Of a stretch of DNA of 38,682 nucleotides, positions 1 through 38,682 are shown in pieces. Source of the DNA: a phage. Numbering within the stretch: the first letter of the stretch is position 1; each line of letters starts with the position of its first letter. Under the pieces are notes generated by a model. That model ran no database searches. It saw nothing but the letters and a program-made list of their open reading frames with translations, and was not told where the DNA came from. Made by a program: the position numbers and the translations under genes. The DNA lies in the sequence record PQ400058.1; one strand, written 5' to 3'.

Positions 1-1967
1 TGAATGGTATCTTCCAGCACTTGTTGGCGGAAGCCGAACTCTTTGGACCCGTAAGCCAGCGTCATGACTGAACGCTTAGTCACGCTGCGAGTAACACCAT
101 AAGCCAGCCACTGACCAGCCAGCGTCTTGGTGCCCAGTTTGACTTTCTCAGAGATTTCACCAGTGTTCTCATCGGTCACGGTAACTACTTCGTTGTCGGT
201 CCCGTTGATTACATCTTCTTGCAGAATCACGTTGACTTTCTTAGCGACAATCCCGTAGATGTCCTGAACTGTTTCGCTAGGCAGCAGGTTAACAGCGCGA
301 CCACCTATCTCATCAAGGAGCATCGCGGAGAAGTGTTGAATACCAGAGCAAGACCCATCGAACGCCAGCGGAAGAGAGCAGTTGTAGCTTAAGCCGTGGT
401 GCTGTACCCCAGCGTACTCAAAGCAGAACGCAAGGAAGCAGAACGGAGAATCTTGCTCAGCCCACCAAGTGTTCTCCAGTGGAGACTTAGCGCAAGCCAT
501 GATGTTCTCGTGGTTGTCCTCAATGAACTTTATGCGCTCAGGGAACGGAACCTTATCGACACCCGCACAGTTTGCACCGTGGATTTTCAGCCAGTAGTAA
601 CCTTCCTTGCCGATTGGTTTACCTTTCGCCAGAGTCAGCAGGCCCTTGGTCATATCGTTACCTTGCGGGTTGAACATTGACACAGCGTAAACACGACCGC
701 GCCAGTCCATGTTGTAAGGGAACCAGATGGCCTTATGGTTAGCGAACTTATTGGCTTGCTCAAGCATGAACTCAAGGCTGATACGGCGAGACTTGCGAGC
801 CTTGTCCTTGCGGTACACAGCGGCAGCGGCACGTTTCCATGCGGTGAGAGCCTCAGGATTCGTGTCGATGTCTTCCGGTTTCATCGGGAGTTCTTCACGC
901 TCAATCGCTGGGATGTCCTCGACCGGGCAGTGCTTCCACTTGGTGATGACGTTGGCGACCGCTAGGACTTTCTTGTTGATTTTCCATGCGGTGTTTTGCG
1001 CAATGTTAATCGCCTTGTACACCTCAGGCATGTAAACGTCTTCGTAGCGCATCAGTGCCTTCTTACTGTGAGTGCGCACCAGCGCCAGAGGACGACGACC
1101 GTTAGCCCAATAGCCGCCACCAGTAATACCAGTCCAAGGCTTAGGAGGAACCACGCAAGGTTGGAACATCGGAGAGATACCAGCCAGCGCACCTGCACGG
1201 GTTGCGATAGCCTCAGCGTATTCCGGTGCGAGTTCGATAGTCTCAGAGTCCTGACCAACTACGCCAGCATTTTGACGATGTAAGCTAACCATTCCGGTTG
1301 ACTCAATGAGCATCTCAATGCAGCGAACACCTACATGAATGGAGTCTTCCTTGTGCCATGAAGACCACGCCTCGCCACCTAGTAGACCCTTAGAGAGCAT
1401 ATCCGCTTCGACAACCTGCATGAATGCTTTCTTGTAGACGTGACCTACTCGCTTGTTGAGTTGTTCCTCAACGTTTTTCTTGAAGTGCTTAGCTTCAAGG
1501 TCACGGATTCGACCAAAGCGCGCCTCGTCCTCAATAGCTCGACCGATTGCACTTGCTACAGCCTGAACGGTTGTATTGTCTACGCTCGTGAGGCAAGCCA
1601 GAGTGGTCTTAATGGTGATGTACGCTACAGCTTCCGGCTTGATTTCTTGCAGGAACTGGAAGGCTGTCGGGCGTTTGCCGCGCTTAGCTTTCACTTCCTC
1701 GAACCAATCGTTGATGCGTGCAATCATCTTAGGGAGCAGGGTAGTAATGAGAGGCTTAGCGGCAGCGTTATCCGCAACCTCACCAGCTTTAAGTTGACGC
1801 TCAAACATCTTGCGGAAGCGTGCTTCGCCCATCTCGTAAGACTCATGCTCAAGGGCCAACTGTTCGCGAGCTAAACGCTCACCGTAATGGTCAGCCAGAG
1901 TATTGAACGGAATAGCAGCCAGTTCGATGTCAGAGAAGTCGTTCTTAGCGATGTTAATCGTGTTCAT
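1..1967 (-). CDS. 1: T7-type single-subunit RNA polymerase (gene 1), N-terminal ~656 codons; truncated by window start, continues at window end
   Basis: ATG at 1967 with GAGG RBS; own translation MNTINIAKNDFSDIELAAIPFNTLADHYGERLAREQ...; frame open to position 1 (...SVMTLAYGSKEFGFRQQVLEDTIQ). Not in ORF track because no stop in window. Confidence 0.93.
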   Translation of the reverse strand, partial: MNTINIAKNDFSDIELAAIPFNTLADHYGERLAREQLALEHESYEMGEARFRKMFERQLKAGEVADNAAAKPLITTLLPKMIARINDWFEEVKAKRGKRPTAFQFLQEIKPEAVAYITIKTTLACLTSVDNTTVQAVASAIGRAIEDEARFGRIRDLEAKHFKKNVEEQLNKRVGHVYKKAFMQVVEADMLSKGLLGGEAWSSWHKEDSIHVGVRCIEMLIESTGMVSLHRQNAGVVGQDSETIELAPEYAEAIATRAGALAGISPMFQPCVVPPKPWTGITGGGYWANGRRPLALVRTHSKKALMRYEDVYMPEVYKAINIAQNTAWKINKKVLAVANVITKWKHCPVEDIPAIEREELPMKPEDIDTNPEALTAWKRAAAAVYRKDKARKSRRISLEFMLEQANKFANHKAIWFPYNMDWRGRVYAVSMFNPQGNDMTKGLLTLAKGKPIGKEGYYWLKIHGANCAGVDKVPFPERIKFIEDNHENIMACAKSPLENTWWAEQDSPFCFLAFCFEYAGVQHHGLSYNCSLPLAFDGSCSGIQHFSAMLLDEIGGRAVNLLPSETVQDIYGIVAKKVNVILQEDVINGTDNEVVTVTDENTGEISEKVKLGTKTLAGQWLAYGVTRSVTKRSVMTLAYGSKEFGFRQQVLEDTI

Positions 1968-3983: not shown

Positions 3984-4004
3984 CTTGTGTTACCTCGTGC
4001 AGTT

Positions 4005-4060
4005 GTTAGTGAATATCATAAAGGGCACCTTGCGATACCCTTGAGTTATCCGCTATTCAT
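4005..4060 (-). promoter_or_regulatory. RNase III-type site upstream of gene 0.3 (R0.3-like)
   Basis: ATCATAAAGGGCACCTTGCGATACCCTTGAG element resembling the other putative RNase III sites. Confidence 0.4.
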
Positions 4061-4168
4061 GCACTCAAGAGCTATTTACCAGATTGTTAAAGAGCGTCTT
4101 TGGTCAGGTTTCGTTAGACCGCATCACCTTTCAGTGTGGTGACTCACTGTTCCGTCATTTCGTGGTAC

Positions 4169-4197
4169 ATCGTACCGTGTTTACTTCATGTTGTCAA
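4169..4197 (-). promoter_or_regulatory. Host sigma70-type early promoter A3-like
   Basis: Minus strand TTGACA (4197..4192), 17-nt spacer, TACGAT (4174..4169). Confidence 0.65.
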
Positions 4198-4301
4198 CCG
4201 TTTTGTTTCACCTTATGTGCCGTGGTGCGCTTAAGTCACCTAGAAGACACCGTGCGTCCGGTTGACGCTGCTAGTGTTGCTAGTGTTACCTAGCGATTTG
4301 T

Positions 4302-4331
4302 ATCTTACTGCATGTTACTTCGTGTTGTCAA
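4302..4331 (-). promoter_or_regulatory. Host sigma70-type early promoter A2-like
   Basis: Minus strand TTGACA (4331..4326), 18-nt spacer, TAAGAT (4307..4302). Confidence 0.65.
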
Positions 4332-4429
4332 TGCCTGTTTTTCGTATGACTTATCAGGCTGTCTACTTATCCGGTTGACCCCGGTATCTCAGGGAGTGGA
4401 TTTAGTCCGTTGTCCCGTTGACGAGATGA

Positions 4430-4458
4430 ATAGTAATCCCTAGGACTCTTTAAGTCAA
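4430..4458 (-). promoter_or_regulatory. Host sigma70-type early promoter A1-like
   Basis: Minus strand TTGACT (4458..4453), 17-nt spacer, TACTAT (4435..4430). Confidence 0.65.
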
Positions 4459-4511
4459 TACTCTTTTTAATAAATTCTCAAATTAATCTCTTTAAGGGTC
4501 TTTAAGTGGTA

Positions 4512-4534
4512 TCTCCTTATAGTGAGTCGTATTA
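4512..4534 (-). promoter_or_regulatory. T7 RNAP promoter phiOL-like
   Basis: Minus strand TAATACGACTCACTATAAGGAGA, a 23-bp T7 promoter consensus variant. Confidence 0.85.
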
Positions 4535-4581
4535 ATAAAGACAATGATTGAAGACTATCTCTCTATAGATAACAACAAGGC

Positions 4582-4665
4582 GTCTTTAGGATGGTCTTTA
4601 GGATGGTCTTTAGGATGGTCTTTAGGATGGTCTTTAGGATGGTCTTTAGGATTATCTTTAAGATA
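4582..4665. repeat. Tandem array of 12-bp unit GTCTTTAGGATG (5 perfect, 2 degenerate copies)
   Basis: Direct reading: units at 4582, 4594, 4606, 4618, 4630, then degenerate copies to 4665. Confidence 0.9.
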
Positions 4666-4714
4666 GGGATTGACTGAATGGGTCTTTAAGTGTATTCTTT
4701 AGGCTGTAGACGGT

Positions 4715-4746
4715 AGGAGGTGACTTTAGGAGGTGACTTTAGGAGG
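4715..4746. repeat. Direct repeat AGGAGGTGACTTT x2 plus partial third copy
   Basis: Copies at 4715-4727 and 4728-4740, then AGGAGGCTGA. Confidence 0.8.
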
Positions 4747-4756
4747 CTGAACAGAT

Positions 4757-4902
4757 AGGGACAAGAAGAGACACCAAAAGGTAAACCCAAGGGTCAACCC
4801 CAACCCTTAGGGACCCTCAAAGTCAACTGAAAGTTGACTCAAGGTGATTGGCTGGACTTTAGGGACCCCTATGGGGGAACTTTAGGTCCGTAAACTGTGA
4901 GA
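4757..4902 (-). repeat. Genome terminal repeat, single collapsed copy at the concatemer or circular-assembly junction (boundaries approximate)
   Basis: Minus strand from 4902 reads TCTCACAGTTTACGGACCTAAAGTTCCCCCATAGGGG..., matching the recalled T7 left terminus; right-end unique sequence abuts at 4903. Confidence 0.6.
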
Positions 4903-5142
4903 TAGTCACTCAGATTTTTATGGTATATTTTAAAGGACCCTCTAGGAACTCCCTATGCCCTCTCTAAGACCCTCTTTAGGTTCCACTGATAGGAGGGCCT
5001 ATCTTTAGGTATAGACCTTACGGATAGACCATTAGAGGCTCTTTATGGGTATACCTTAAGACTTGACTCTATAGGGATGAAGTGGTGTGATGCAATCATA
5101 CCGCTGAATCCCTCGGTGAGCCATCAGTCGGTCAGGAAGACC

Positions 5143-5292
5143 CTAATCGCTACAAGTGAGTAGAGAGCAAACTGTAGACTCCAGTGAACTGAGGTCTCCA
5201 GTAAGAGATGCGTACCCAAGGGCAGCACAAAGTACCACAAGAAATCGGTAGGTGACTCTATGCCGCAACAAGGTCAACAATAAGCGGAACAT
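5143..5292 (-). CDS. 19.5: gp19.5-like small protein, 49 aa
   Basis: Hand translation MFRLLLTLLRHRVTYRFLVVLCAALGYASLTGDLSSLESTVCSLLTCSD; ATG 5292 with AAGGAGGG RBS; downstream of phiOR. Confidence 0.75.
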   Translation of the reverse strand: MFRLLLTLLRHRVTYRFLVVLCAALGYASLTGDLSSLESTVCSLLTCSD

Positions 5293-5446
5293 GAGTCTCC
5301 CTCCTTTATGTTGGTCTTTAAGTTAAGGTGATATTAATACAATATAATCACCATTCTTGGAGGTCACTTTAGGTACACCATTATGCATACTTTATGCACT
5401 CTATAAGTATTCATTCAGTATCTATATAGTAACCTTTCGTCCCTCC

Positions 5447-5469
5447 TCTCCCTATAGTGAGTCGTATTA
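5447..5469 (-). promoter_or_regulatory. T7 RNAP promoter phiOR-like
   Basis: Minus strand TAATACGACTCACTATAGGGAGA (exact consensus). Confidence 0.9.
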
Positions 5470-5550
5470 ATTTATCGTGTCTTTTCAGTAACTTAAAGAA
5501 CTGACCATCCGTGGTCTATAGTGCATCCCTATGCAGTCTCAGTGAATAAA

Positions 5551-7311
5551 TCACCACTCAATGAAAGACGTACCGTAACCCTCATCGTCCTCAGAGTATA
5601 CATCAACTCCTCCCACAGACATCTCAATGATGTGCGTAGCAGCGACCGTAGGGCGCATCATGTGCTCCTCAAGGAAGTCAGCAAGCACTTCACCTTCTAC
5701 CTTAACGGAATCCAACTGCATGGACTCGCGGAGATACTCAATGCCTAACGCAAGGGCATCCAATCGGTCATCATGTGCCAGAGCGCCTTTCTCACGAGTG
5801 ATACGGGTCATCTGGTAGAACAGTGAATACTTAACGTCATGCTTACCGTCTACGTCACGAGCGGACTGGTAGTCGGCCCTAATGACCTCATCACGAATGA
5901 CAAGGCGGTGAGTCTGCATGACTGGCTCAAGGGTATCACAAATACGCATCTCCTTCATACCACGAGCACGAATCTCCTCCATTGCACAGTTGTGGTGTTT
6001 AAGAAGGATAGGACTGAACACCTTACCAAACATGCCGTCACCGAAGTTACTCTCATAGACGACCGTCTGGACTCCCCATTGCTTAGCTTTCCTAGCGAGC
6101 AACTCAAGGGTCTTATCGGAGTAACCATCGCGGAAACCTCCAGCTTCCATTAGGTAGATGTAACCGTTCAGGGTGAACAGCACAGCGTAACCTGTTTCGT
6201 CCTTACCGCGACCACTAGGGTCAATGACCAGAATCTTCTGTTGGTACTGACCAGAGTTGTTGGAGCAATCATGGTAAGTATGCAGGTCATCACCCTTAAG
6301 GCCAACGTTAGGAAGGTCCTCAATGATGTTCTGACGGTTCGGAAGCCATTGGTAATGCATTGGAGCCTTCTCTAAGTCTAAGGCCGCTACGATAGCGTCA
6401 CGGAGCCTCAGAGGGTACTTCTCGGCATCACTCAGGTTCGGGTTAAGCATGAACTGTAGTGTGAAGCCAGCCTTACCGTATTCCAACTCACGCTCACGGA
6501 GGTCCTCTCGGTCGAAGCGCACAGGGTCCGTAGGAGTCCCGGCGAGGGCCTCAGGGTTCTCATCGTACTCAGCACGTAGCATAGGGGCAAGTCGCTGTGC
6601 GTAATAGAGGTTCTCTTCGCGAGTCCTTGGGTACAGAGCAGGCCAGATGATAGTGGTATACCCACGGTTATCCTCAAGTTCCTTATAGAGAGTCATCTCG
6701 GTCTGAGGTGTGCCAAGGTAGATAACACGAGAGGAAGGCAGCGGTTTAAGCAACGCAGCGAACTCCTGAACTAGAGTCCATAGCTTCTCACGGGCACCCA
6801 TAGTCGCACTGTTAGACGGAATCTCAACATCATCCGCAATGATAATGTCAGCACGGCTACCAGTTAACTGACCAGTGATACCTACCGATTTTACACTAGG
6901 AGAGTGGTCAGGGTTAGCTGGACCTACATCAAAGCTAATTACAGAATCACGCTGTCCGGGTCTTGGCTTCAATTCAGCAAGGAAAGGCAGCAGGTCAATG
7001 ATGTTCTTAATGAAGATGGAGTTAGCGTCTGCACGTTCCTTAGAGGCTGATACGATGAGTATCTTCAACTGAGGGTCTCTCCATAAGGACCACACAACGA
7101 ACGCACATGTGATGAACGACTTACCTATACCACGGAAAGCCTGTAGGATGAACTTCTTGTTGTCCCCATTCGCCAGTACCTTAGCCATGTCAATCTGACA
7201 CTTAGTGGGCACCGGAAGGTTTAACGCCTTCCACAATACGAACAGGAAGGCCACGAAGTCTCCTTTCAGTTGCGCCACTACGAGCGCATTACGATTGGAT
7301 TGAGTAGACAC
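5551..7311 (-). CDS. 19: Terminase large subunit (gp19)
   Basis: Track ORF 586 aa [22 protein letters not shown]...; GTG start at 7311 after TAAGGAGGT; same length as T7 gp19. Confidence 0.93.
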
Positions 7312-25049: not shown

Positions 25050-25352
25050 TTAAATATTGATGCCGCCACCGGAGCTACGAGCCACACTCAAGGATTTCTT
25101 ACCACCAGCACGGGCTTTCTTACGTCCGCTTTCGGTCTGTGCTTCGTCCTCAGTGGAGACCTCTTTCTCAGGTACGTCAACAATCTGTGCAGCAGGAGTT
25201 GCAGCAGCCTGTGGCACTTCCACTACCTGCGCTTCACCAGCGCCACCAGCCAGACCACTGGCAACCTGTTTAACCGGACGAGCCACTTCCTTAACGACTT
25301 TCTTAACGGACTTAGTGACTTTCTTCACGGCCTTCTTGACTTTCTTACCCAT
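25050..25352 (-). CDS. 7.3: gp7.3 virion (tail-associated) protein
   Basis: Track ORF 100 aa MGKKVKKAVKKVTKSVKKVVKE..., lysine-rich. Confidence 0.85.
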   Translation of the reverse strand: MGKKVKKAVKKVTKSVKKVVKEVARPVKQVASGLAGGAGEAQVVEVPQAAATPAAQIVDVPEKEVSTEDEAQTESGRKKARAGGKKSLSVARSSGGGINI

Positions 25353-31217: not shown

Positions 31218-32924
<1,707 letters not shown>

Positions 32925-38016: not shown

Positions 38017-38682
38017 TTACGCGAACGCGAAGTCTGACTTAAGGATGTCTTGGAGATTCAAGTTACCTTTAGCCGGAAGTGCTGGCATTTTGTCCAATTG
38101 AGACTCATGCAACTGGTCAGCGAACTGGTCATAGAAGTCAGCAAGTACATCACAAGACTCATAGGTGTCCACCATCGTTTCACGCACAGCTTTGAACAGG
38201 TTGGCAGCGTCAGCCGGAATGGTCCCGAAGGAGTCGTGAATCAGTGCAAACGATTCGATTCCATACTTCTCGTGTGCCCACACTACAGTCTTACGCAGAT
38301 GGCTACCGTCTTGGCTGTGTACAAAGTTAGGAGCGATGCCAGACTCCTGCTTGTGAGCGTCAATCTCGCTATCTTTGTTGGTGTTAATGGTCGGCTGTAA
38401 GCGGAACTGACCAAGGAACATCAGGTTCAAGCGAGTCTGAATTGGCTTCTTGTATTCCTGCCACACTGGGAACCCATCAGGAGTTACCCAATGCACAGCG
38501 CAACGCTTGCGAAGAATCTCGCCAGTCTTCTTATCTTTGACCTCAGCAGCCAGCAGCTTAGCGGCAGACTTGAGCCAGTTCATAGCCTCTACAGCGGCTA
38601 CTACAGTCACGCTCACAGCTTCCCAAATCAGTTTCGCCATGTAACCAGCAGCCTGATTCGGTTGAGTGAACATAATACCCTT
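38017..38682 (-). CDS. 1: T7-type RNA polymerase (gene 1), C-terminal 221 codons; 5' part runs off window end and resumes at window start
   Basis: Frame open from 38682 (KGIMFTQPNQAAGYMAKLIWE...) to stop TAA 38017-38019; ends ...LQDILKSDFAFA. Confidence 0.93.
   Translation of the reverse strand, partial: KGIMFTQPNQAAGYMAKLIWEAVSVTVVAAVEAMNWLKSAAKLLAAEVKDKKTGEILRKRCAVHWVTPDGFPVWQEYKKPIQTRLNLMFLGQFRLQPTINTNKDSEIDAHKQESGIAPNFVHSQDGSHLRKTVVWAHEKYGIESFALIHDSFGTIPADAANLFKAVRETMVDTYESCDVLADFYDQFADQLHESQLDKMPALPAKGNLNLQDILKSDFAFA

What the first reader, a model, noticed from the sequence alone, without database searches (positions are those of the whole stretch)
4582..4665. Clean 12-bp tandem array (GTCTTTAGGATG x5-7) next to the terminal repeat
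The left-end region of T7 as I recall it has irregular CCTAAAG-containing repeats. Here the same motif forms a near-perfect tandem array, which could be recent slippage expansion in the region involved in concatemer processing.
Basis: seen in the sequence. Interest (0 to 1): 0.4.

Follow-up and report, generated by a model that had tools for sequence, protein, structure and literature searches.

The report
T7-type left-end short-repeat array, expanded
The 12-base tandem array is real, but it is this phage's version of a repeat block that every T7-like phage carries between the terminal repeat and the first phage promoter; the block grows and shrinks by slippage, and on the opposite strand each unit matches the published rules for a T7 primase start site.

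Summary
Observation confirmed. Window 4582-4664 holds 6.9 head-to-tail copies of GTCTTTAGGATG (5 exact, 1 with one mismatch, 1 degenerate).

The window is a complete, circularly permuted, reverse-complemented T7-like genome with one collapsed terminal repeat (TR). Its nearest relatives are about 92% identical. On the phage strand the unit reads CATCCTAAAGAC. The array lies 93 bp inside the inferred TR, between a leftward A0-like host promoter and the phage promoter phiOL.

All 27 Teseptimavirus relatives with this interval available have a CCTAAAG array between the same flanks. T7 itself has 13-bp units (five 13-bp spacings). Unit length is 12 or 13 bp, and there are 4-7 motif copies; one group has homogenised the motif to CCTAACG. 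The window's array is the largest and cleanest of a continuous range. Two lab-evolved T7 clones have lost exactly one 13-bp unit from the neighbouring repeat block. Slippage expansion is therefore well supported, but the feature is ordinary for this genus.

Function is my inference. On the complementary strand each unit is TGGTC-TTTAGGAT-GG, meeting all three published criteria for active T7 primase templates. The homologous T7 units were among 26 templates reported to bind and prime well in vitro. A mirror cluster sits on the other strand just before the right TR. I propose that these clusters prime the last Okazaki fragment just inside the TR (about 40% likely).

The parts
4582..4664 (-). 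12-bp tandem array, 6.9 copies. On the phage (minus) strand the unit is CATCCTAAAGAC, that is heptamer CCTAAAG plus spacer ACCAT. It is the promoter-proximal block of the left-end short-repeat region.
   Evidence: TRF, sequence, pattern search. Homologous arrays lie between the same flanks in 27 relatives.
4592..4644 (+). Five TGGTC pentamers on the window plus strand (the phage bottom strand), starting at 4592, 4604, 4616, 4628 and 4640. Each is followed by TTTAGGAT and then GG (TA for the last one). They are candidate gp4 primase start sites on the lagging-strand template of the leftward replication fork.
   Evidence: The criteria of Zhang et al. 2026 (PMC12839067) applied. The same script recovers that paper's sites S1-S5 in T7.
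4680..4684 (+). A sixth criteria-passing primase-type site, GGGTC-TTTAAGTG-TA. It is homologous to T7 site S1 and lies within the spacer of the A0-like promoter.
4670..4698 (+). A0-like sigma-70 promoter, leftward in phage orientation: TTGACT, 17-bp spacer, TATTCT. It starts 5 bp beyond the end of the array.
   Evidence: Promoter scan. It is homologous to T7 A0 and to the annotated A0 of phage 13a.
4714..4746 (-). TR-proximal mini-array, 13 bp x2.5 (CCTCCTAAAGTCA). It is the second repeat block of the same region.
   Evidence: TRF. The block has 5 copies in phage Pila and 2-5 in the other relatives.
4750..4756 (-). ATCTGTT, the class II pause/termination motif for T7 RNA polymerase at the concatemer junction, directly after the TR.
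   Evidence: Sequence. The motif class is described in bioRxiv 10.64898/2026.02.12.705533. Phage 13a annotates a 'concatemeric junction' at the same place.
4757..4902 (-). Terminal repeat, present as a single collapsed copy of 146 bp. The boundaries are inferred by homology to T7 nt 1-160.
   Evidence: Alignment by eye. TR lengths of 144-174 bp in relatives.
4512..4534 (-). phiOL-type T7 RNA polymerase promoter, TAATACGACTCACTATAAGGAGA.
   Evidence: Sequence; T7 and 13a annotations.
4936..5031 (-). Right-end repeat region just before the TR. It carries primase-type pentamers on the phage top strand: GGGTC at 4936-4940, GGGTC at 4968-4972 and TGGTC at 5027-5031. This is the mirror image of the left-end cluster.
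   Evidence: The T7 homologues are sites S25 and S26 of PMC12839067.

Best explanation
WHAT IT IS (about 95% sure). The window is a complete T7-like (Teseptimavirus-type) genome, assembled as a circle and read on the reverse strand. The array is the promoter-proximal block of the short-repeat region that lies between the left terminal repeat and the phiOL promoter in T7-group phages. These are the CCTAAAG repeats known since the T7 genome sequence. It is non-coding.

HOW IT AROSE (about 85%). The block behaves like a minisatellite. Units of heptamer plus a 5-6 nt spacer are gained, lost and homogenised by replication slippage or unequal recombination between units. This genome carries an expanded, very homogeneous state: 7 heptamers, of which 6 lie in one 71-bp perfect run.

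WHAT IT DOES (about 40%; my inference). Read on the complementary strand, each unit is 5'-TGGTC-TTTAGGAT-GG-3'. That is a T7 gp4 primase recognition pentamer with the A/T-rich 3' flank and the '-10' dinucleotide that mark efficient templates. This strand is the lagging-strand template of the fork that runs from the primary origin to the left end. The array would then be a battery of primer start sites 100-160 bp inside the TR, making it likely that the last Okazaki fragment starts just inside the TR. The 3'-terminal TR would be left single-stranded, able to anneal with the complementary tail of another molecule to form concatemers (the Watson 1972 scheme), with only a short gap to fill. A mirror-image cluster on the other strand sits just before the right TR. 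Under this reading copy number is not critical, which is why it drifts.
For: Identity:
- T7-like order of gene 19, phiOR, gene 19.5, TR, ATCTGTT, repeats, phiOL, A1, ocr.
- The flanks ctatCTTAAAG and GCCTTGTTGTT are shared with T7.
- Phage 13a annotates TR, concatemeric junction, A0 and phiOL in the same order.

Non-coding:
- The only ORFs across the array are 28 and 40 aa repeat artefacts.
- Relatives have 13-bp units, which would break any reading frame.

Turnover:
- The interval between the flanks is 59-97 bp in the 25 genomes tabulated, with 4-7 motif copies, 12- or 13-bp periods and perfect runs of 1.6-5.9 units. The window is the maximum.
- Whole-array homogenisation to CCTAACG in WW2, Yep_9 and an EG1-like contig.
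- Exact loss of one 13-bp unit in the T7 clones T7_180L and T7_250L.

Primase reading:
- GACCA (TGGTC on the bottom strand) follows the heptamer in 70 of 135 units and occurs in all 26 phages tabulated. It is kept where the heptamer core changed.
- Strong pentamers in the left repeat region: bottom strand 92, top strand 1, over 25 phages. In the right repeat region: top 68, bottom 3, over 17 phages.
- In the window's right region, 4 sites are seen against 0.77 expected from dinucleotide shuffles (P=0.003), with G and C nearly equal.
- Zhang et al. 2026 (PMC12839067): 26 T7 templates were selected by three sequence criteria and reported to bind and prime well in vitro. Four (S1-S4) lie in the T7 left repeat region, three of them in the homologous 13-bp array. 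Two (S25, S26) lie just before the right TR.
- Applying those criteria to the window genome gives 6 sites on the bottom strand within 250 bp inside the TR, the genome-wide maximum for 250-bp windows. In T7 the maxima for the two strands fall at the two ends.
- The RNA polymerase gene, and by homology the primary origin downstream of it, lies to the right of the array, so the bottom strand is the lagging template here.
Against: - The counts in the left region are inflated because one unit has been duplicated in tandem. The top strand there is also G-poor (10% G, 31% C), so the asymmetry on the left is not independent evidence.
- Copy number ranges from 2 to 6 strong sites with no visible constraint.
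[quoted passage not shown] Extra copies may therefore add nothing.
- T3-like contigs show only weak strand asymmetry and no tandem array.
- The CCTAAAG heptamer keeps the same orientation at both genome ends, which the primase reading does not explain.
- This phage's primase zinc-binding domain is only 63% identical to T7's over the first 88 residues, although the four Cys, D31, H33 and K57 are kept. The zinc-binding-domain type does not co-vary with unit type.
- No priming, replication or packaging data exist for this phage.
- The older subscription literature on T7 packaging (Chung & Hinkle 1990; Dunn & Studier 1983) could not be read.
Confidence: 0.45

Rival explanations
1. The array is a neutral minisatellite. 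It is a tolerated, function-free by-product of slippage in a non-coding stretch, and the primase-type pentamers are an accident of the unit sequence.
For: The region is hypervariable in copy number, unit length and even core motif among close relatives. Viable T7 clones have lost a unit from the neighbouring block. The primase zinc-binding-domain type does not co-vary with unit type. T3-like phages lack such an array.
Against: An array is retained at this exact position in all 27 relatives with this interval available, with at least 2 strong bottom-strand sites in each of the 29 scored and almost none on the top strand. GACCA or GACAC is kept through unit changes. There is a mirrored, composition-independent enrichment at the right end. 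The T7 units are reported as good templates in vitro.
Confidence: 0.3
2. The array is an accessory site for packaging or maturation. The CCTAAAG heptamers would be binding or phasing sites for the terminase (gp18/gp19) or for the paused RNA polymerase-lysozyme complex that processes the concatemer junction. More copies would give a stronger site, in the manner of the repeated small-terminase boxes at pac or cos sites of other phages.
For: 14 of the 24 CCTAAAG copies lie within 800 bp around the junction, all in one orientation, on both sides of the TR and inside it. The array begins about 90 bp downstream of the ATCTGTT pause motif. A 2026 review says that end formation in T3/T7-like phages is still poorly understood (PMC13595956).
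Against: The left region is the variable side, while the right region is nearly invariant. That fits the essential signals lying to the left of the TR in the junction. The heptamer is replaced by CCTAACG throughout the array in three phages. Unit loss is tolerated in T7 clones. Spacing of 12-13 bp is out of phase with the DNA helix. I know of no sequence-specific binding of gp18 to CCTAAAG (my knowledge, not tested here).
Confidence: 0.18
3. The array is a regulatory spacer or upstream element for the divergent promoters that flank it: the A0-like host promoter, whose -35 hexamer lies 5 bp away, and phiOL about 47 bp away. It could also belong to the secondary replication origin associated with phiOL.
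For: The array occupies the region upstream of the -35 hexamer of the A0-like promoter and upstream of phiOL. It contains periodic T/A tracts.
Against: The length of the interval varies from 59 to 97 bp among relatives, so no fixed spacing or phasing is kept. The 12-13 bp period is not in helical phase. No function for A0 is known to me (my knowledge). Nothing here tests promoter activity.
Confidence: 0.05
4. The copy number is an assembly artefact (collapse or over-extension of a repeat), or the array encodes a repeat peptide.
For: No reads are available. The genome is a circularised assembly with one TR copy collapsed. Automatic annotation has called small ORFs over the homologous arrays in ESh3 and YpP-Y.
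Against: The array is 83 bp, shorter than common short reads, and has unique flanks. Comparable arrays occur in about 30 independent genomes and contigs. The ORFs are 28 and 40 aa repeat artefacts on the strand opposite to phage transcription, and the 13-bp units of relatives destroy any frame.
Confidence: 0.02

Closest known systems
Left-end short-repeat region of phage T7 (CCTAAAG repeats, T7 nt ~175-343; array at 282-340)
   Same: Same position between the TR/ATCTGTT motif and phiOL. Same flanks (ctatCTTAAAG ... CCTAAAGACGCCTTGTTGTT). Same heptamer and orientation. Same two-block layout with the A0 promoter between the blocks.
   Different: T7 units are 13 bp (ACCTAAAGACCAG) with five spacings, only 82% alike. 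Here they are 12 bp (ATCCTAAAGACC) with six spacings, with six heptamers in one perfect run. T7's TR-proximal block has more copies than the window's.
Arrays of Teseptimavirus PDP351P2 (OZ035763) and Yersinia phage WW2 (OP161219)
   Same: PDP351P2 has the identical unit ATCCTAAAGACC x5.8 and the same primase zinc-binding-domain type. WW2 has a 12-bp x5.3 array at 98% match.
   Different: PDP351P2 ends with a CCTATT-type unit, and its perfect run is 4.4 units against 5.9 here. WW2's core is CCTAACG. Both genomes are only about 85-90% identical to the window in this region.
T7 primase priming-site clusters I and VII (Zhang et al. 2026, Biomolecules 16:78, PMC12839067)
   Same: Sites S2-S4 are the T7 homologues of these units, and S1 is the homologue of the GGGTC at window 4680-4684. 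The window units meet all three published sequence criteria.
   Different: That paper treats the clusters as single priming sites. In the sections I read it does not link them to the CCTAAAG repeats, the TR or concatemer formation. It tested T7 sequences with T7 primase only.
Repeated small-terminase recognition boxes at pac/cos sites (SPP1 pacL/pacR, lambda cosB R sites)
   Same: Short direct repeats clustered beside the DNA cutting site of a packaging system (my knowledge).
   Different: Those repeats are conserved and required. Here the array is hypervariable, its core can change, and no binding is known.

Membership tests
T7-group left-end short-repeat region | Lies between the left terminal repeat / concatemer-junction pause motif and the phiOL promoter. 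| tested here: met
   TR 4757-4902, ATCTGTT 4750-4756, array 4582-4664, phiOL 4512-4534, all on the phage strand. The same order is annotated in T7 and 13a.
T7-group left-end short-repeat region | Repeated heptamer CCTAAAG in a single orientation, clustered at the genome ends. | tested here: met
   24 copies against 4.7 expected. 14 lie within 4584-5373, all on the minus strand.
T7-group left-end short-repeat region | Sequence homology of the flanks to T7 and its relatives. | tested here: met
   The anchors C[TCA]A[TC]CTTAAAG and GCC[TC][TC]GT[TC]GTT were found in the window and 24 relatives. Phages 13a and Yep_15 also have them, and one relative has a slightly diverged left flank. BLAST identity to relatives over 4500-4910 is 79-88%.
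T7-group left-end short-repeat region | Units spaced 12-13 bp apart. | tested here: met
   The window has six 12-bp spacings. Relatives have 11-13 bp spacings.
Active T7 gp4 primase template (criteria of PMC12839067) | Pentamer 5'-(G/T)(G/T)GTC-3' on the template strand. | tested here: met
   TGGTC starts at window 4592, 4604, 4616, 4628 and 4640 on the plus strand; GGGTC at 4680.
Active T7 gp4 primase template (criteria of PMC12839067) | More than 4 A/T in 3'-flank positions 1-8, and TA, TG, GA or GG at positions 9-10. | tested here: met
   The flank is TTTAGGAT (6 A/T) followed by GG (TA for the last unit). All six sites pass. Criteria quoted.
Active T7 gp4 primase template (criteria of PMC12839067) | Located on the lagging-strand template with respect to the replication origin. 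| tested here: met
   The sites are on the phage bottom strand, left of gene 1. The primary origin is placed downstream of gene 1 by homology to T7 only. The paper uses the same strand assignment.
Active T7 gp4 primase template (criteria of PMC12839067) | The phage's primase has T7-like template specificity. | tested here: inconclusive
   gp4 is 94% identical to T7 gp4A overall, but the first 88 residues (zinc-binding domain) are only 63% identical. The four Cys, D31, H33 and K57 are conserved.
Active T7 gp4 primase template (criteria of PMC12839067) | Primers are actually made at these sites in vitro or in vivo. | not testable with these tools
   In-vitro activity is reported only for the T7 homologues S1-S4. 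There is nothing for this phage.
Terminase recognition repeats (pac/cos type) | Conserved among relatives that share the terminase. | tested here: not met
   gp18 and gp19 are 99% identical to T7's, yet the array differs in unit length, copy number and, in three phages, core motif.
Terminase recognition repeats (pac/cos type) | Sequence-specific binding by the small terminase subunit, and a requirement for packaging. | not testable with these tools
   No binding or packaging data are available here. The Chung & Hinkle 1990 papers are not held in the library.
Protein-coding tandem repeat | An open frame kept across relatives (unit length a multiple of 3), on a transcribed strand, with a start signal. 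| tested here: not met
   Only 28 and 40 aa repeat ORFs on the anti-sense strand. T7, C5, SalC2, 13a and others have 13-bp units.

The most novel reading that the evidence does not exclude
The short-repeat regions that flank the terminal repeat of T7-like phages are not packaging signals. They are terminal primase-site batteries: dense clusters of high-quality gp4 start sites, on the bottom strand at the left end and on the top strand at the right end, that is, on the lagging-strand template of the fork running off each end. They would place the last Okazaki primer just inside the TR, so that the whole TR is left as a 3' single-stranded tail for concatemer annealing with a minimal gap to fill. 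The minisatellite behaviour of the left array, including this expanded 12-bp version, would be a cheap way to keep at least a few such sites. I found no paper making this link in the searchable library. The older subscription literature could not be checked.
Probability: 0.35. Interest if true: 0.55.

Novelty: new member of a known kind. Interest (0 to 1): 0.3.

Why it matters
As a sequence feature it matters little. It is one more copy-number state of a repeat block known in T7 since 1983 (my knowledge), in a phage about 92% identical to described Teseptimaviruses.

Two practical points follow:
- The block is a fast-evolving marker that can distinguish closely related T7-like isolates.
- It is a place where assemblers and gene callers make mistakes. 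Spurious 'hypothetical proteins' are annotated over it in ESh3 and YpP-Y.

The more interesting point is mechanistic. How T3/T7-type phages generate and duplicate their terminal repeats is still described as poorly understood (PMC13595956). The roughly 40-year-old CCTAAAG repeats have, to my knowledge, no accepted function. If they are terminal primase-site clusters, that would connect lagging-strand priming to concatemer formation. It is directly testable with existing T7 genetics and a recently published primase-site rule set.

Tried and rejected
1. Search for the same phage or the same array elsewhere, to compare copy number within a species.
- The 24-mer CATCCTAAAGACCATCCTAAAGAC gave no hits in viral, metagenome or genome contigs.
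- Exact-protein look-ups for Ocr and terminase found nothing. The gene 19.5 look-up gave one contig of a different, 93%-identical phage with 13-bp units.
- Intraspecific variation therefore could not be tested.

2. Coding. Rejected (and the 13-bp units of relatives).

3. Structured RNA. Rfam in E-value mode over 4000-5700 gave only a chance miRNA hit inside the repeat (19.8 bits against a gathering score of 80, E=0.71).

4. Co-variation between the primase zinc-binding-domain type and unit type, which would have been strong support for the primase reading. None was found: 13a and Yep_15 share the window's domain type but have 13-bp units.

5. Generality in T3-like phages. There is only weak asymmetry of primase pentamers and no tandem array.

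6. Collapsing the array to one unit for the shuffle test. My string replacement failed, so I do not claim a significance value for the left region independent of the tandem duplication.

7. Literature. No searchable paper discusses the function of the CCTAAAG repeats. The phiA1122 genome paper is not held. Statements about Dunn & Studier 1983, Chung & Hinkle 1990, Watson 1972 and the packaging direction rest on my memory.

8. Assembly artefact. Not testable without reads.

Full report
1. THE OBSERVATION

Tandem Repeats Finder reports window 4582-4664 with period 12, 6.9 copies, 95% matches and score 145. This is the strongest tandem repeat in the window. The sequence reads GTCTTTAGGATG five times exactly, then GTCTTTAGGATT, then the degenerate ATCTTTAAGATA. 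The longest perfect period-12 run is 71 bp, so chance is excluded.

2. CONTEXT

- The region matches T7-like phages (815 records; best about 91% identity). Over 24 kb the nearest genome is Cedecea phage Yanou at 92%, and T7 is at 90%.
- The phage strand is the window's minus strand. Gene 19 (terminase large subunit) is at 5551-7311.
- The RNA polymerase gene is split across the two ends of the window. The window is therefore a whole genome assembled as a circle, with a single collapsed terminal repeat (TR).
- Reading the minus strand against T7's two ends gives this order:
  - phiOR promoter
  - gene 19.5 (5143-5292)
  - right-end repeat region
  - TR (4902 down to 4757, 146 bp, by homology)
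  - the class II pause motif ATCTGTT (4756-4750)
  - a 13-bp x2.5 mini-array CCTCCTAAAGTCA (4746-4714)
  - a leftward A0-like sigma-70 promoter (plus strand 4670-4698)
  - the 12-bp array (4664-4582)
  - GCCTTGTTGTT
  - the phiOL promoter (4534-4512)
  - promoter A1
  - ocr
- Phage 13a's record annotates the same series: TR, concatemeric junction, A0, phiOL.
- The array is therefore 93 bp from the TR, not abutting it.
- CCTAAAG occurs 24 times in the window against 4.7 expected. Fourteen copies lie within 800 bp around the junction, all in one orientation.

3. COMPARISON WITH RELATIVES

I extracted the interval between the conserved flanks (ctatCTTAAAG and GCCTTGTTGTT) from 25 genomes and contigs including the window. 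Three more were examined afterwards. Every one has a tandem CCTAAAG array there.

- T7 has five 13-bp spacings (ACCTAAAGACCAG; TRF 282-340, 4.5 copies, 82% matches).
- In the 25 tabulated, the interval is 59-97 bp (median 75; window 96). It holds 4-7 motif copies (median 5; window 7), with periods of 12 or 13 bp.
- Spacers are accat, accag, accaga, accata, acacta or acacca. Perfect runs are 1.6-5.9 units. The window is the largest, followed by WW2 (4.8), then PDP351P2 and Yep_9 (4.4).
- PDP351P2 has the same unit, ATCCTAAAGACC, x5.8.
- In WW2, Yep_9 and an EG1-like contig every internal unit reads CCTAACG. This is concerted evolution of the whole array.
- In phage Pila the other block (CCTAAAGTCACCT) has expanded to five copies, while this block has only four motif copies.
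- Two lab-evolved T7 clones (T7_180L and T7_250L; MZ375267 and MZ375281) have lost exactly one 13-bp unit from the TR-proximal block.
- By contrast, the 190 bp before the TR at the right end are almost identical in 17 genomes (the window and 16 relatives).

Conclusion: this is a hypervariable minisatellite at a fixed place. The window carries a recently expanded, homogeneous state at the top of a continuous range. Slippage or unequal exchange is well supported. A strict role as a processing signal is not.

4. WHAT IT IS NOT

- Not coding. The only ORFs are (MVFR)n and (SLGW)n artefacts of 28 and 40 aa on the anti-sense strand. The 13-bp units in T7, C5, SalC2 and 13a preclude a conserved frame. 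The small CDSs annotated over the array in ESh3 and YpP-Y are therefore spurious.
- Not a known RNA.
- An assembly artefact cannot be excluded without reads. It is unlikely for an 83-bp array with unique flanks when about 30 independent assemblies show similar arrays.

5. A MECHANISTIC LEAD

Across the arrays the constant element is not only CCTAAAG. The next bases, GACCA, follow the heptamer in 70 of 135 units and occur in all 26 phages tabulated. Three units have GACAC. GACCA is retained where the heptamer became CCTAACG. On the complementary strand these read TGGTC and GTGTC, which are recognition pentamers of the T7 gp4 primase.

Pentamer counts:
- In the window genome the three strong pentamers (GGGTC, TGGTC, GTGTC) occur at about 4 per kb on each strand.
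- The region between the TR and phiOL has 6 on the bottom strand and 0 on top. The region before the TR has 4 on top and 0 on the bottom.
- Over relatives the left region gives bottom 92 against top 1 (25 phages). The right region gives top 68 against bottom 3 (17 phages).
- The right-end enrichment is not compositional: 4 observed against 0.77 expected in dinucleotide shuffles, P=0.003, with G 23% and C 22%.
- The left-end count is inflated by tandem duplication and by a G-poor top strand, so I give it no independent weight.

Published support:
- Zhang et al. 2026 (PMC12839067) defined three features of efficient T7 primase templates: the pentamer (G/T)2GTC, more than 4 A/T in 3'-flank positions 1-8, and TA, TG, GA or GG at positions 9-10.
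- They selected 26 T7 templates and reported that these bound and primed well in vitro.
- Their sites S1-S4 (nt 230-324, negative chain) lie in T7's left repeat region, and S2-S4 are units of the homologous 13-bp array.
- Their sites S25 and S26 (positive chain) are the two invariant pentamers just before the right TR.
- They call these clusters I and VII. They do not connect them with the repeats, the TR or concatemers.

My implementation of the criteria recovers S1-S5 in T7. In the window genome it gives six passing sites on the bottom strand within 250 bp inside the TR, five of them array units (TGGTC-TTTAGGAT-GG). That is the genome-wide maximum for any 250-bp window. In T7 the maxima for the bottom and top strands fall at the left and right ends respectively.

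The bottom strand is the lagging-strand template of the fork that runs from the primary origin (downstream of gene 1) to the left end. The top strand plays that role at the right end. This is the same assignment as in the paper.

6. PROPOSED MECHANISM (INFERRED)

The clusters make it likely that the last Okazaki fragment on each arm is primed within about 40-160 bp inside the TR. This leaves the TR itself as a 3' single-stranded tail. Complementary tails of two molecules anneal into a concatemer junction (the Watson 1972 scheme, from my knowledge), and the short gaps are filled from the annealed 3' ends. Several redundant sites are enough, so copy number is free to drift by slippage.

What is shown: the sequence match to the published criteria, the strand and position pattern, its conservation within Teseptimavirus, and the reported in-vitro activity of the T7 homologues.

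What is not shown: use of these sites in vivo, any effect of copy number, and the specificity of this phage's primase.

7. CAVEATS

- The primase zinc-binding domain here is a mosaic variant. It is 63% identical to T7's over the first 88 residues, against 94% for the whole protein. The four Cys, D31, H33 and K57 are conserved.
- This variant is shared with 13a, PDP351P2, Yep_15, Vi06 and others. It does not co-vary with unit length.
- T3-like contigs show only weak asymmetry.
- The Zhang paper cites evidence that the number of recognition sites does not change Okazaki fragment size.
- The heptamer keeps one orientation at both ends, which suggests that it has, or had, a separate role.

I therefore rate the primase function at about 0.4, a neutral minisatellite at about 0.3, a packaging-accessory role at about 0.2, and promoter or other roles at about 0.1 or less.

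8. KNOWN OR NEW

The feature belongs to a known kind, the T7-group left-end CCTAAAG repeats. This is a new copy-number and unit state in a new genome, so I class it as a new member of a known kind. The link between the repeats and terminal primase-site clusters was not found in the literature I could search. The older subscription papers could not be read, so novelty of that idea is possible but unverified.

9. VERDICT

Interest is low to moderate (0.3). The array itself is ordinary, and the primase reading is a testable hypothesis of moderate interest.

Noticed in passing
window 1-1967 and 38020-38682 (minus strand): The T7-type RNA polymerase gene is split across the two ends of the window. 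The window is therefore a whole, circularly permuted, reverse-complemented phage genome with only one copy of the terminal repeat. The virion DNA would be about 146 bp longer.
   Followed up: partly
window 31221-32912 (minus strand), first ~88 codons: The primase/helicase gp4 is 94% identical to T7 gp4A overall, but its N-terminal zinc-binding domain is only 63% identical. This is a mosaic variant shared at 91-98% identity with phages 13a, PDP351P2, Yep_15, HZP2, Vi06 and WX1/WX2. The Cys4 ligands, D31, H33 and K57 are kept.
   Followed up: partly
L039 and L040 (T7 clones T7_180L and T7_250L; MZ375267, MZ375281), nt 1-240: Besides losing one 13-bp repeat unit, these lab-evolved T7 clones carry an 18-bp deletion inside the terminal repeat, between GGG repeats in a hairpin-like segment. 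They also carry an A-to-C change in the concatemer-junction pause motif (ATCTGTT to CTCTGTT).
   Followed up: no
L015 (WW2) 568-631; L021 (Yep_9); L032 (EG1-like contig): In three Yersinia/Escherichia phages every internal unit of the homologous array reads CCTAACG instead of CCTAAAG, while the TR-proximal repeats stay CCTAAAG. This is a clear case of concerted evolution within the array.
   Followed up: partly
window 4903-5090 (minus strand) and homologous stretches of 16 relatives: The ~190 bp before the terminal repeat at the right end are nearly invariant across relatives, while the region after the repeat is hypervariable. This is consistent with the essential end-processing signals lying on the right-end side of the junction.
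   Followed up: partly
window 4786-4811 (minus strand), inside the terminal repeat: A terminator-like hairpin (CCTAAGGGTTGGGGTTGACCCTTGGG followed by a T-rich tail) lies within the terminal repeat. The 18-bp deletion in the lab T7 clones removes part of the homologous T7 segment.
   Followed up: no
L007 535-681 (ESh3); L017 535-657 (YpP-Y); L018 84-179 and 485-595 (Pila): The public records carry small 'hypothetical protein' CDSs. In ESh3 and YpP-Y they lie over the repeat arrays; in Pila they lie within and near the terminal repeat. The ESh3 and YpP-Y calls are almost certainly spurious, given the 12/13-bp unit variation; the Pila calls are suspect and were not checked.
   Followed up: partly
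window 25285-25347 and 31864-31894: Other short tandem repeats inside coding regions: 21 bp x2.8 (CTTAATGACTTTCTTAACGGA) and 12 bp x2.6 (TCCTCAACGGAC). Not examined.
   Followed up: no
L044 (Salmonella phage Vi06) nt ~140-175: Vi06 has a different tandem repeat (GTATCTCTTA x3-4) and irregularly spaced CCTAAAG copies after its junction motif. This shows that the repeat region has been remodelled further in more distant Teseptimaviruses.
   Followed up: no
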